Of a DNA stretch of 64,000 nt, positions 40,300 to 49,118 are shown piece by piece; within the stretch, counting starts at the first letter, position 1; each line of letters begins with the position of its first letter. Made by a program: the position numbers and the translations under genes. Source of the stretch: Escherichia phage vB_EcoM_SA21RB; sequence record OL960580; one strand, 5' to 3'. The notes below the pieces were generated by a model, which was not told the DNA's origin, made no database searches, and worked only from the letters and a program-made list of their open reading frames with translations.

Positions 40300-40710
40300 T
40301 CATTTTTTCTTGTGTTGAATATTCCAAGGCGGGTTAAACAGTTTAATGAATAGCGGCTCCTCTAGGTCAATCGTTGCGATTGTCATTGTACCTAACTCAT
40401 TTGTCATAGAAAGATTAAAACATTGGCGGGCGTAAAATTCAACTTTGCTTCCTTCCTTTAGCGCAGCATGAATTAATGCAGATTTAGTAGAATCAGACGT
40501 TTTGTCTTTACGGTTAATAGCAGTTCTATAATAGTTTATTCTTTTACGTAAATTTTTAGTTTTTCCAATATAAACAAGCTCATCATTTATAGCAATAGCA
40601 TAAATTACATTATACTTGTTTGGAATAGATAACTGTTTTATACTTCCATTGTCGTCTAATTCTAGCTCAGTATATTTAATAAATGAATATTCCGTTGCAA
40701 TTTCTTTCAT
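40300..40710 (-). CDS. denA: Endonuclease II (GIY-YIG family)
   Basis: 136 aa from ATG 40710 (MKEIATEY); GIY-YIG-like VIYAIA...YIGKT; track start is GTG. Confidence 0.88.
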
Positions 40711-40717
40711 AATAAAA

Positions 40718-40733
40718 TGGGCCTTGCGGCCCA
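40718..40733 (-). terminator. Stem-loop GGGCC-UUGC-GGCCC between nrdB and denA
   Basis: 5-6 bp GC stem followed by AUUUUAUU on the minus strand. Confidence 0.5.
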
Positions 40734-40737
40734 CTCC

Positions 40738-41907
40738 TTAAAAATATTTTTTAAAACCCATCATAACTTTATCATCAACATCATTATCAATCTGTGCTAC
40801 AAGGTAAGATGACAGTTCTACTTCTTGTGGCGCGGATTGAACATTATCAGAATTAAGATATTCACGAATCCAAGGATACGGGTGTTTAACCGGAGCATCG
40901 GTAATTGGGCATGGAAGACCACACTGTTTCATACGAGATACAGTTAAGTAATCAATAAAGCTCCACATGCTATTTGTATTTAATCCAGGAACATCGCCAT
41001 CTTTAAATAAATGAACTGCCCAGTCTTTTTCTTGACGGTTAACTTCCATGAAAATATCAACTGCTTCTTGTTCACACTCTTGAGCAATTTTAACCCATTC
41101 ATCGCCATCAGTGCCAAGTTGAAGTTGACGAATAATATATTGAGTGCCTTTAAGGTGAAGCTGTTCATCACGAGCAATGAACTTCATAATCTTGGCATTA
41201 CCTTCCATGATTTCCATGTTCTTATGGAAGTTAAAGGTACATGCGAAAGATACATAAAAACGAATAGCTTCCAATGCGTTGATTACATGAAGGCAAAGAT
41301 AAAGAGATTTCATTAATGCTCGTTTAGTACATTCAACAACTTTGCCTAACTCTTCTTTACGAAATCCTTCTGATAAAATTCCTTCATAATCTTCAACCGC
41401 ATTCTGATATTCACGAGTCTTAACTAGAACGTCATCATAATAACGACCAATAGATTCAGCACGTTTCATGATAGCTTTATCTAATACAATCTCATCAAAT
41501 ACCTTTGATGGATCAGTATAAAGATTTCGCATGATATGGGTATATGAACGACTGTGAATAGTTTCGCTAAAAGTCCATGTAGCAACCCATGTATCAAGGC
41601 TTGGATCTGAAATTAATGACATAAGTACAGCAGATGGTGCACGACCCTGAATGCTATCTAGAAGTGATTGATACTTCAGGTTATTAGTAAAAATATCTTG
41701 CTGATACTGAGGAAGCTTGTTAAATTGTGCAGCATCCATCATCAAGTTTACTTCTTCAGGACGCCAGAAAAATGATAATTGCTTTTCGGTTAAATCTTCA
41801 AAAACTTTATGGCGTTGAATATCATAACGCGCAATACCAAGACCTGAACCGAAGAACATGGGTTCTTTTAAAACATCAACTGGATTTGTATTAAAAACTG
41901 TGCTCAT
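40738..41907 (-). CDS. nrdB: Ribonucleotide reductase small subunit NrdB (uninterrupted)
   Basis: 389-aa continuous ORF; no intron. Confidence 0.93.
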   Translation of the reverse strand: MSTVFNTNPVDVLKEPMFFGSGLGIARYDIQRHKVFEDLTEKQLSFFWRPEEVNLMMDAAQFNKLPQYQQDIFTNNLKYQSLLDSIQGRAPSAVLMSLISDPSLDTWVATWTFSETIHSRSYTHIMRNLYTDPSKVFDEIVLDKAIMKRAESIGRYYDDVLVKTREYQNAVEDYEGILSEGFRKEELGKVVECTKRALMKSLYLCLHVINALEAIRFYVSFACTFNFHKNMEIMEGNAKIMKFIARDEQLHLKGTQYIIRQLQLGTDGDEWVKIAQECEQEAVDIFMEVNRQEKDWAVHLFKDGDVPGLNTNSMWSFIDYLTVSRMKQCGLPCPITDAPVKHPYPWIREYLNSDNVQSAPQEVELSSYLVAQIDNDVDDKVMMGFKKYF

Positions 41908-41943
41908 AAATTTTCCGCTTAGTTAATAGATAGTGACTCGTCC

Positions 41944-41961
41944 GTGAGTCAAATTATATCA
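41944..41961. terminator. Stem-loop UGACUC-loop-GAGUCA overlapping the nrdA stop
   Basis: 6-bp stem with 6-nt loop. Confidence 0.35.
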
Positions 41962-47833: not shown

Positions 47834-48064
47834 TTATTGTTCAATCAGTCCCATGTAAAATTCTGCGTCTTCAGAATCCATGCCGTCACAATACTCATTA
47901 GCCATAAAGCGGGTGAGGTCTTCAAGAGGACCTTCAATGACAATAGAAAAATTGCAATAATTGGGATCATCGTGAATACTTGTGATACTAAGCTCAGGAT
48001 AACGATTACGAATAATTTCTTCAATATATTCAAAATCAACGATGTCAATATCAACTTTAGCCAT
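47834..48064 (-). CDS. Hypothetical acidic protein, 76 aa
   Basis: Start moved to ATG 48064 (MAKVDIDIV) with SD AAGAGGA; track start 48085 lacks an SD. Confidence 0.6.
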
Positions 48065-48107
48065 ATTATTTTCCTCTTTAATCATCAGCAGTATTGCCGA
48101 TAGTTGT

Positions 48108-48137
48108 ATAGTACCATAAAGCTTTATGCTTGTAAAC
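48108..48137 (-). promoter_or_regulatory. T4-type early promoter (GTTTAC, 18-nt spacer, TACTAT)
   Basis: Reverse complement read directly. Confidence 0.6.
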
Positions 48138-48157
48138 TGTTTTGTGAAAAAATTTTT

Positions 48158-48187
48158 GAAATAAAAAAGGGGACCTCTAGGGTCCCC
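48158..48187 (-). terminator. Rho-independent terminator after gene 32
   Basis: GGGGACC-loop-GGUCCCC hairpin followed by a U-run on the minus strand. Confidence 0.75.
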
Positions 48188-48209
48188 AATTAATTAGTAA
48201 TATAATCTA

Positions 48210-49118
48210 TTAAAGGTCATTCAAAAGGTCATCCAGGTCCGTGTCATCAGCACTAGATGAACTGCCAGAGCTTGAGCTCATAAAATCATCTTCAGTTTTT
48301 GTTTTGAAGTCATCAACATTAAATGCATCCAAATCATCAGCAACTTTATCAGCTTTCTTAGCGGCAGTCGCTGCGGCACCACCCATAGCAGCAGTTCCCA
48401 TAACTTGACTGAACTTAGTGCTCAGTTCTTCAAACGATTTGAATTTATCTTTAGAAGTCATTTCAGAAAGGTCAACCATTTGCTCGAACAGTTCTTTCTG
48501 GAAAGATTCATCATCAATGTTTGGAATCGCAGATTGATTCAGGAATTTAGATTCGTCGTAGTTACTAAAACCAGAAACTTGTTTAACTTTTAGTACAAAG
48601 TTAGCACCTTCCCACGGACAAGTTACATCAACCGGAGTTTCACCCATTTCAACATCAACTGCAATCATTGCATTGATTTTATCCCAGATTTTCTTACCGA
48701 AACGGTATTTAAATACTTTACCTTCATTTTCTGGAGCAGCTGGGTCTTTTACTACAAGAATGTTAGCCCAGTAAGAAGTTTTACGTTTAACAAGACCGTA
48801 CTCTTTATTGTCAGTGTTATACAAATCATTTTTACTGATGTACTGACATACTGGGCAAGAATCGTAATCACCGTGGGTAGATGAACAGTTTTCAATATAC
48901 CATTTACCGTTTTTCTTGAAACCGTGATTTACAAGAATTGCGAATGGTGCTTGTTCATCATTTTTAGACGGAAGAAAACGAATTACTGCTTGACCGTTAC
49001 CCGCATTGTCGAGTTTCAGTTTCCACTCGCCTTTATCTTCAGAAGAAAAACCACCTTTATTTCCAGCCAGTTTAGCCATTTGCGCAGCGAGTTCAGCAGT
49101 AGATTTACGTTTAAACAT
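48210..49118 (-). CDS. 32: Single-stranded DNA-binding protein gp32
   Basis: 302-aa ORF, N-terminus [17 protein letters not shown]; acidic Ser/Asp-rich C-terminus. Confidence 0.95.

What the first reader, a model, noticed from the sequence alone, without database searches (positions are those of the whole stretch)
40300..48210. Intron-free td and nrdB and no homing endonuclease genes at the usual T4 loci
The td and nrdB reading frames are continuous, with no group I intron. The gene 32 to frd.3 interval carries two small acidic ORFs where T4 has a homing endonuclease (segG, from memory). Elsewhere in the window the inh to uvsW gap is only 50 bp. The GIY-YIG protein present is the 136-aa EndoII (denA). 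These are the unoccupied alleles that T4 homing endonucleases target, which matters for marker exclusion in mixed infections.
Basis: partly seen in the sequence, partly recalled or inferred. Interest (0 to 1): 0.4.

Follow-up and report, generated by a model that had tools for sequence, protein, structure and literature searches.

The report
Empty homing-endonuclease sites in T4-like phage
This stretch of a T4-like phage genome lacks the self-splicing introns and selfish nuclease genes that phage T4 carries at the same places, which is the ordinary, majority state among T4 relatives and is already well described for phage T2.

Summary
The window is a Tequatrovirus segment running from the end of gene 17 to arn. 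Its closest record is Shigella phage ESh26, at 97% identity.

The core observation holds. td and nrdB are continuous reading frames, and the T4 introns are missing exactly at their insertion sites. All six T4 mobile elements that map to this window are absent: segD, segE, I-TevIII with the nrdB intron, mobE with nrdB.1, I-TevI with the td intron, and segG. The only GIY-YIG protein is EndoII (denA).

- T4 segG lies between genes 59 and 32. Here that site is a 99-bp gap at 49119-49217, outside the given coordinates. It does not lie between 32 and frd.3.

The real differences from T4 are small extra ORFs of unknown function between frd and td and between frd and frd.1.

The empty loci are T2-like. 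The 59-32 gap is 99/99 identical to T2, and the mapped MobE nick site matches T2. A relative, YUEEL01, carries the td intron in a window-like td allele. In the phage collection the empty state is the majority. Verdict: already known, low interest.

The parts
40300..40734 (-). denA (endonuclease II). It is the only GIY-YIG protein in the window and is not a homing endonuclease. The ATG start at 40713 gives 137 aa.
   Evidence: phmmer against T4 denA E=1.7e-95. Pfam GIY-YIG E=2e-6 and phrog_1111 'endonuclease'.
40738..41907 (-). nrdB, a continuous 389-codon frame. The empty intron insertion site lies between 41241 and 41240.
   Evidence: The T4 598-bp intron maps as a clean gap at 41240/41241. 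The exon junction reads TCTTTCGCAT|GTACC, against T4 TCTTTTGCGT|GTACC.
41782..41786 (-). Position that corresponds to the MobE-dependent nick sites mapped in T2 nrdB (nt 122-126).
   Evidence: The sequence here is AAAAG, as in T2. The 31 bases printed upstream of it (nrdB nt 91-121) differ from T2 at one position, and there are two differences just downstream. T4 reads GCGGC at the nick position and is strongly diverged around it. The site position comes from PMC2790892.
41908..41958 (-). nrdA-nrdB intergenic region, 51 bp. This is the empty site where T4 has mobE + nrdB.1 and where SH7 and IME537 have a 243-aa HNH/NUMOD endonuclease.
   Evidence: About 700 bp of T4 sequence is missing. The region is 49/51 identical to T2. 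The relatives' endonucleases are shown.
41959..44223 (-). nrdA, undivided (754 aa).
   Evidence: Collinear with T4 and T2. IME537 has nrdA split by an HNH endonuclease gene; this window does not.
44781..45641 (-). td, a continuous 286-codon frame. The empty intron insertion site lies between 45093 and 45092.
   Evidence: The T4 intron with I-TevI maps as a clean gap. The protein is collinear with T2 and T4 TS.
45082..45119 (-). Sequence that corresponds to the 38-bp I-TevI homing site (-27..+11).
   Evidence: CAACG is kept at -27..-23. There are six synonymous differences from T4, and T2 also has six. The site definition comes from PMC2988022.
45641..45847 (-). 68-aa ORF inserted between frd and td. 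It is absent from T4, and T2 has an unrelated 115-aa ORF in its place. It overlaps the frd stop (ATGA) and the td start (TAATG).
   Evidence: It is a 202-bp insertion relative to T4. It matches phrog_9550 (unknown function) at E=1e-45 and has no Pfam hit. It is present in about 141 phage records.
45844..46428 (-). frd (dihydrofolate reductase).
   Evidence: Aligned to T4 frd at 86% identity. ESh26 annotation.
46428..47017 (-). Two ORFs absent from T4, between frd and frd.1: an 81-aa ORF (46428-46673, phrog_3183) and a 110-aa ORF (46685-47017, Pfam DUF7247).
   Evidence: They form a 517-bp insertion relative to T4, with family matches. T2 has the first ORF only.
47028..47270 (-). frd.1.
   Evidence: Pfam DUF5417 E=4e-33, the same domain label that the T4 record gives frd.1. 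Aligned to T4 frd.1.
   Evidence: Pfam FRD2 E=2e-31. Collinear with T4 frd.2.
47834..48085 (-). frd.3, the other 'small acidic ORF'. The likely start is at 48064.
   Evidence: Pfam Phage_FRD3 E=9e-38 over residues 8-83. Collinear with T4 frd.3.
48210..49118 (-). Gene 32 (ssDNA-binding protein), the target gene of T4 SegG.
   Evidence: 97.8% identical to T2 gene 32 and 95.3% to T4. The target-gene assignment comes from PMC2988022.
49119..49217 (-). 59-32 intergenic region, 99 bp. This is the true empty segG site.
   Evidence: T4 segG (about 628 bp) is missing. The region is 99/99 identical to T2. The contiguous empty junction occurs in 354 phage records.
8576..8657 (.). 23-24 intergenic region, the empty segD site.
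   Evidence: T4 106521-107311, which contains segD, has no counterpart here.
13375..13424 (.). inh-uvsW intergenic region, 50 bp, the empty segE site.
   Evidence: T4 112044-112680, which contains segE, has no counterpart here.

Best explanation
The window comes from a Tequatrovirus whose nucleotide-metabolism and replication gene cluster (denA-nrdB-nrdA-td-frd-32-59) carries none of the mobile elements found at these loci in T4. There is no group I intron in td or nrdB, and no free-standing homing endonuclease gene (mobE, segG, segD, segE). It has the T2-type 'empty' configuration.

Shown here: the elements are absent exactly at the insertion points, the host genes are intact, and the flanking sequences match those of T2.

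Inferred from published T4 x T2 work: in a mixed infection with a phage that carries these elements, I-TevI would cut td 23/25 nt upstream of the insertion site. MobE would nick nrdB near nt 122-126, and SegG would cut gene 32. Repair from the donor genome would then copy in the element plus flanking donor markers, which is localized marker exclusion.

The empty state is the common state among relatives, so this is normal presence/absence polymorphism of selfish elements, not a special feature of this genome.
For: - Collinear blastn and MAFFT alignments with T4 show clean gaps only where T4 has segD, segE, the nrdB intron, nrdB.1+mobE, the td intron and segG. T2 shares every one of these gaps.
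- The exon junctions are in frame and the proteins are full length.
- No endonuclease homologue other than denA was found in six-frame phmmer searches. All ORFs specific to the window have non-nuclease matches or none: frd.1-3, DUF7247, unknown-function PHROGs, Alt ADP-ribosyltransferases, and gp37/gp38.
- T2-likeness: 59-32 gap 99/99, nrdA-nrdB gap 49/51, gene 32 97.8%, MobE nick site identical.
- The td site keeps CAACG at the native distance and has six synonymous changes, as T2 does.
- YUEEL01 carries the 1016-nt td intron in a window-like td allele next to the same 68-aa ORF. Only the last 6 nt of exon 1 are T4-like.
- Prevalence among phage records: td intron 197, nrdB intron 118, segG 142, full mobE region 20. 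About 560 records match this region at 80% identity or more, and 354 have a contiguous empty 59-32 junction.
- Literature: insertion sites and target genes (PMC2988022); MobE nick and trans-homing into T2 (PMC2790892); exclusion of T2 genes 32 and 56 by SegG and SegF (PMC2330249).
Against: - Susceptibility to cleavage is inferred, not tested.
- The td site differs from both T4 and T2 at -22 and -19, and from T2 also at -7 and -4. The nrdB sequence has two differences from T2 just 3' of the nick site.
- The SegG cleavage-site sequence could not be retrieved, so it was not compared base by base.
- Only 64 kb of the genome is visible. Endonuclease genes at the other T4 loci (segA-C, segF, mobA-D, I-TevII) cannot be assessed.
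- The Rfam scan for introns was uninformative, because it also missed the T4 introns in the control.
Confidence: 0.9

Rival explanations
1. The empty loci are cleavage-resistant ('immune') variants, not susceptible targets. Synonymous changes in the recognition sequences would have been selected because they block T4-type endonucleases, so no marker exclusion would occur.
For: There are six synonymous substitutions within the 38-bp I-TevI site, including -6 and -4 in the 5'-exon sequence that pairs with the intron guide. There are two substitutions next to the MobE nick site relative to T2. nrdB segment 41300-41500 is only 73-75% identical to both T4 and T2.
Against: - I-TevI is described as tolerant of changes in its homing site, provided the CXXXG motif is at the right distance (PMC2988022). 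That motif is intact here.
- T2, a proven recipient, has the same number of differences from T4.
- YUEEL01 shows that a td allele with the same -22, -19, +3 and +6 bases did receive the intron.
- The MobE nick pentamer matches T2, and the 31 bases upstream of it differ from T2 at only one position.
Confidence: 0.12
2. The empty state is secondary. An ancestor carried the introns and endonuclease genes and lost them by precise deletion, for example through recombination with an empty relative or a reverse-spliced cDNA, so these are 'cured' alleles and not naive ones.
For: Homing elements are thought to cycle through gain, decay and loss. The genome is a mosaic of T4-like and T2-like segments, so replacement of an occupied allele by recombination is plausible.
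Against: No remnant of any element was found at the DNA or protein level. The 59-32 gap is base-for-base identical to T2. The flanks lack the T4-type polymorphisms that co-conversion would have left. With this evidence the history cannot be told apart from never having been occupied, and either history leaves the same present-day allele.
Confidence: 0.15
3. One of the small window-specific ORFs is a cryptic or degenerate mobile-element gene, so the loci are not truly free of selfish elements. The candidates are the 68-aa ORF between frd and td, and the 81-aa and 110-aa ORFs between frd and frd.1.
For: - The ORFs sit at sites that vary between T4, T2 and this phage.
- The 68-aa ORF is a neat cassette with start and stop overlaps.
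- It is present in only about a quarter of relatives, at 99% identity or more in most of them.
- HEG families are acknowledged to be under-detected (PMC10448857).
Against: There are no Pfam nuclease or DNA-binding domain hits at E<=0.1 and the PHROG matches are of unknown function. There is no similarity to T4 or relatives' endonucleases. At 68-110 aa they are too short for a typical two-domain homing endonuclease.
Confidence: 0.05

Closest known systems
Phage T2 (AP018813) denA-nrdB-nrdA-td-frd-32-59 region, the classical recipient genome in T4 x T2 partial and localized marker exclusion
   Same: td and nrdB are continuous. The nrdA-nrdB gap is 51 bp (49/51 identical). The 59-32 gap is 99 bp (99/99 identical). 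There is no segG, mobE, I-TevI or I-TevIII. The sequence at the MobE nick site is the same.
   Different: T2 has an unrelated 115-aa ORF between frd and td instead of the 68-aa ORF, and it lacks the DUF7247 ORF. A roughly 100-nt 3' segment of td is replaced in the window. The td homing site differs at four positions.
Phage T4 (NC_000866), same region, the occupied donor configuration
   Same: The gene order and host genes are the same. Identity is typically about 93-98% away from the element sites, with local dips such as frd, the td 3' end and frd.2. denA/EndoII is conserved.
   Different: T4 has the td intron with I-TevI, the nrdB intron with a defective I-TevIII, nrdB.1 with mobE, segG, segD and segE. 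T4 lacks the three small ORFs around frd. The T4 nrdB 5' region is strongly diverged at the MobE site.
Escherichia phage YUEEL01 (KY290975), a window-like td allele that carries the td intron
   Same: It has the same 68-aa ORF upstream of td and a window-like td exon sequence, including -22T, -19G, +3T and +6A. nrdB is continuous and the nrdA-nrdB gap is 51 bp.
   Different: It contains the 1016-nt td intron with I-TevI. The last 6 nt of exon 1 are T4-type (TTGGGT, against CTCGGT here).
Shigella phage SH7 and Escherichia phage IME537, alternative occupants of the nrd locus
   Same: The backbone is the same, at 94-95% identity.
   Different: Both have a 243-aa HNH/NUMOD endonuclease gene between nrdA and nrdB. 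IME537 also has a 236-aa HNH endonuclease gene that splits nrdA. The window has neither.

Membership tests
Group I intron in td or nrdB (T4 type) | Non-coding insertion that interrupts the reading frame at the known insertion site | tested here: not met
   Both frames are continuous, and the T4 introns align as clean gaps at 45093|45092 and 41241|41240.
Group I intron in td or nrdB (T4 type) | Match to the group I intron RNA core (Rfam Intron_gpI) | tested here: inconclusive
   There was no Rfam hit in the window at gathering score. The same scan also missed the two known introns in the T4 control locus, so the negative carries no weight.
GIY-YIG homing endonucleases (I-TevI, SegD/E/G type) | N-terminal GIY-YIG catalytic module joined to a separate DNA-binding domain, encoded in an intron or in an intergenic insertion absent from relatives | tested here: not met
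   phmmer with T4 SegD, SegE, SegG and I-TevI against all six-frame ORFs of 25 aa or more gave a best E of about 1. The only GIY-YIG protein is denA, at 137 aa a single domain, orthologous to T4 EndoII and present in all relatives.
HNH homing endonucleases (MobE, I-TevIII, Hef-like) | HNH motif protein, with or without NUMOD, at the nrdA/nrdB junction, within nrdA, or in the nrdB intron | tested here: not met
   The nrdA-nrdB gap is 51 bp and nrdA is undivided. phmmer with T4 MobE and I-TevIII and with the SH7 and IME537 endonucleases gave nothing significant.
Recipient ('empty') homing allele | Absence of the element at the syntenic position, with intact flanking host genes | tested here: met
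   Six of six T4 element positions in the window are empty.
Recipient ('empty') homing allele | Conservation of the endonuclease recognition and cleavage sequence | tested here: inconclusive
   - I-TevI: CAACG is kept at -27..-23, with six synonymous changes, as in T2.
- MobE: the nick pentamer and the sequence upstream of it are T2-like.
- I-TevIII: the site is largely conserved.
- SegG, SegE and SegD: the site sequences were not retrievable. Only overall identity is known, at 97.8% to T2 for gene 32.
Recipient ('empty') homing allele | Cleavage by the endonuclease and super-Mendelian inheritance of the element in mixed infection | not testable with these tools
   This needs cleavage assays or crosses. 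The indirect support is the natural intron-bearing version of this td allele in YUEEL01.

The most novel reading that the evidence does not exclude
The small ORF cassettes that occupy variable junctions around frd could be a distinct class of tiny mobile or hitch-hiking cassettes. The examples are the 68-aa phrog_9550 ORF, which is precisely coupled between frd and td, the unrelated 115-aa ORF at the same junction in T2, and the 81-aa and DUF7247 ORFs between frd and frd.1. They could spread through co-conversion tracts started by neighbouring homing endonucleases such as I-TevI, or they could modulate homing or exclusion at td.
Probability: 0.05. Interest if true: 0.4.

Novelty: already known. 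Interest (0 to 1): 0.08.

Why it matters
The finding has little importance of its own. Presence/absence polymorphism of introns and free-standing homing endonuclease genes among T-even phages has been described since the 1990s, and so has its consequence, localized marker exclusion of T2-type alleles by T4. The empty configuration seen here is the majority state among sequenced Tequatroviruses. The practical value is limited to annotation. It corrects the gene labels (frd.1, frd.2, frd.3) and the location of the segG site. It also predicts that this phage would lose its td, nrdB and gene 32 markers in crosses with T4-type donors.

Tried and rejected
- Rfam scan for group I introns. There was no hit in the window, but the T4 control locus with two known introns also gave no hit, so the result was discarded as uninformative.
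- Search for endonuclease remnants in the empty sites and in the window-specific ORFs. I used phmmer with T4 SegD/E/G, I-TevI/III, MobE and NrdB.1, the SH7 and IME537 HNH endonucleases, and the T2 115-aa ORF. Nothing was found.
- Test of whether the divergent td C-terminal segment is a double frameshift. It is not. About 100 nt are replaced by unrelated sequence in the same frame, and ESh26 shares the replacement.
- Attempt to retrieve the exact SegG cleavage site (Liu et al. 2003) and the SegH/Hef paper (PMC1275590). Neither is held, so no base-level SegG site comparison was possible.
- I did not run the large protein-database searches or structure prediction on the small unknown ORFs. The Pfam and PHROG results already answered the question at issue, which was whether they are nucleases.
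Full report
**Identity of the window.** A megablast of 40300-48210 against the phage collection matched 929 records, nearly all Tequatrovirus or other T-even relatives. The closest is Shigella phage ESh26 at 97% identity, and 485 records cover at least 80% of the query. blastn of the whole window against T4 NC_000866 shows collinearity from the end of gene 17 (T4 97942) to arn (T4 162366). The finding's region, read on the minus strand from high to low coordinates, has this gene order: 59, 32, frd.3, frd.2, frd.1, two extra ORFs, frd, one extra ORF, td, nrdA.2, nrdA.1, nrdA, nrdB, denA, rnlA.

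**The observation.**
- td (44781-45641) and nrdB (40738-41907) are single continuous frames.
- In the pairwise and three-way alignments, the T4 td intron with I-TevI is a clean gap between window 45093 and 45092. The T4 nrdB intron (598 nt, with the defective I-TevIII) is a clean gap between 41241 and 41240.
- The spliced-exon junctions are reproduced in frame. td reads ...CCTCGGT|CTTCCA..., encoding F-L-G-L-P-F. nrdB reads ...TTTCGCAT|GTACC..., encoding S-F-A-C-T.
- T4 nrdB.1 and mobE (about 700 bp) are replaced by a 51-bp nrdA-nrdB gap (41908-41958).
- Elsewhere in the window, segD (between 23 and 24) and segE (between inh and uvsW) are also absent.
- phmmer searches used T4 SegD, SegE, SegG, I-TevI, I-TevIII, MobE and NrdB.1, plus three HNH endonucleases from relatives. 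Run against every six-frame ORF of 25 aa or more, they found nothing significant. denA matched only T4 denA, which was included as a query (E=1.7e-95).
- denA is a GIY-YIG protein (Pfam E=2e-6) of 137 residues from its ATG, consistent with EndoII.
- Every stretch of the window without DNA similarity to T4 was checked at the protein level. None shows a nuclease domain.

- In T4, segG lies between genes 59 and 32 (T4 147909-148541; table in PMC2988022). It does not lie between 32 and frd.3. The T4 32-frd.3 interval is about 145 bp with no gene.
- The "two small acidic ORFs" at 47834-48085 and 47409-47789 are ordinary frd.3 (Pfam Phage_FRD3, E=9e-38) and frd.2 (Pfam FRD2, E=2e-31).
- The genuine empty segG site is the 99-bp 59-32 gap at 49119-49217, just outside the finding's coordinates. 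It is indeed empty.
- The real gene-content differences from T4 in this stretch are insertions here, not deletions:
  - a 68-aa ORF (45641-45847, phrog_9550) wedged between frd and td, with ATGA and TAATG overlaps;
  - an 81-aa ORF (phrog_3183) and a 110-aa ORF (DUF7247) between frd and frd.1.

**Comparison with T2 and the target sites.**
- T2 (AP018813) is the classical recipient in T4 x T2 exclusion experiments. It shares every one of the gaps relative to T4.
- The 59-32 gap is 99/99 identical to T2, the nrdA-nrdB gap is 49/51 identical, and gene 32 is 97.8% identical (95.3% to T4).
- Wilson and Edgell mapped MobE-dependent nicks to nt 122-126 of T2 nrdB (PMC2790892). The window has the same AAAAG there (41782-41786). 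The 31 bases upstream of it differ from T2 at one position, whereas T4 is heavily diverged around this point. This explains the 83% identity of nrdB exon 1 to T4, against 95% for exon 2.
- I-TevI recognizes 38 bp, cuts 23/25 nt upstream of the insertion site at a CXXXG motif, and tolerates substitutions (PMC2988022). The window keeps CAACG at -27..-23. It has six synonymous differences from the T4 exon junction in -27..+11, the same number as T2.

**Evidence from a relative.** Phage YUEEL01 has a td allele that is window-like, with the same -22T, -19G, +3T and +6A and the same 68-aa upstream ORF. It nevertheless contains the 1016-nt intron with I-TevI. Only the last six nucleotides of exon 1 are of T4 type, and these are the ones that pair with the intron guide sequence. 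So this allele type has been invaded in nature, with a very short co-conversion tract. Other relatives show that the nrd locus is a hot spot. SH7 and IME537 have a 243-aa HNH/NUMOD endonuclease between nrdA and nrdB, and IME537 has a second one that splits nrdA.

**How common is the empty state?**

| Element or junction | Phage records |
|---|---|
| td intron, at least 80% of its length | 197 |
| nrdB intron, at least 80% of its length (some outside Tequatrovirus) | 118 |
| segG | 142 |
| full nrdB.1 + mobE segment (143 partial matches) | 20 |
| records matching the 7.9-kb region at 80% identity or more | about 560 |
| contiguous empty 59-32 junction | 354 |

Each element is therefore a minority allele and the empty site is the majority state. 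Roughly half of the top 40 hits span the region at the same length as the window, which suggests they are empty at all sites.

**Mechanism.**
- Shown here: absence of the elements, intact host genes, and T2-type flanks.
- Inferred from the literature: on co-infection with a T4-type donor, endonuclease cleavage or nicking of td, nrdB and gene 32 would be followed by recombinational repair from the donor. That repair would install the element and co-convert flanking markers, which is the basis of localized marker exclusion of T2 genes (PMC2330249; PMC2790892; PMC2988022).
- Not tested: actual cleavage of these particular sequences, and the SegG, SegE and SegD sites at base level.

**Controls and limits.** The Rfam scan found no intron in the window, but it also failed on the T4 control, so it is disregarded. 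Only 64 kb is visible, so nothing can be said about the other T4 endonuclease loci.

**Verdict.** The phenomenon and its consequences are textbook T-even biology. The classification is 'already known' and the interest is low.

Noticed in passing
window 45641-45847 (-): A 68-aa basic ORF of unknown function (phrog_9550, no Pfam hit) is inserted exactly between frd and td. It overlaps the frd stop (ATGA) and the td start (TAATG). T4 has frd and td overlapping directly, and T2 has an unrelated 115-aa ORF at the same junction. The ORF is present in about 141 phage records, most at 99% identity or more.
   Followed up: partly
window 46428-47017 (-): Two ORFs absent from T4 lie between frd and frd.1: an 81-aa ORF (phrog_3183) and a 110-aa ORF (Pfam DUF7247). 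T2 has only the first.
   Followed up: partly
window 44810-44920 (-), 3' part of td: About 100 nt that encode roughly 30 residues of the TS C-terminal region are replaced by unrelated sequence in the same frame. The window reads ...LQLKFPDEFDEWDTESQVFWLSQFAKPHN... and T4/T2 read ...LVISGLPYKFRYLSTKEQLKYVLKLRPKD.... ESh26 shares the replacement. It is not a frameshift.
   Followed up: partly
[quoted passage not shown]: This segment is only 73-75% identical to both T4 and T2 and has a 21-bp insertion relative to T4, while the flanking nrdB sequence is 94-97% identical. It looks like a third allele of a variable NrdB surface segment.
   Followed up: no
window 23845-28002 (-): There are two full-length Alt-like ADP-ribosyltransferase genes in tandem (685 and 698 aa, both Pfam ADPrib_exo_Tox). 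T4 has one alt gene plus the alt.-1 and alt.-2 remnants of a duplication.
   Followed up: partly
window 37370-37690 (-): A 106-aa ORF (phrog_2364, no Pfam hit) is inserted between pseT and pseT.1 relative to T4.
   Followed up: no
window 57214-61821 (+): The distal tail fibre is T2/T6-type. gp37 is 1260 aa with a C-terminal Peptidase_S74 chaperone domain, and it is followed by a 264-aa gp38 adhesin (Pfam GP38). This is unlike T4 gp37 and gp38.
   Followed up: partly
L008 (YUEEL01) td, locus 4491-6367: The intron-bearing td of YUEEL01 is window-like on both sides of the intron, except for the last 6 nt of exon 1, which are T4-type. This implies a co-conversion tract of less than 19 nt upstream and less than 3 nt downstream, or selection for P1 pairing.
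   Followed up: partly
L001 (T4 134000-152000): An Rfam gathering-threshold scan does not detect the T4 td and nrdB group I introns, presumably because of the large ORF insertions. A negative Rfam result therefore cannot be used to exclude ORF-bearing phage introns.
   Followed up: no
window 49119-49217: The 99-bp 59-32 gap contains a TATAAATA late-promoter-like motif and the gene 32 leader. It is base-for-base identical to T2. In T4 the gene 32 promoters are embedded in segG (PMC2988022).
   Followed up: no
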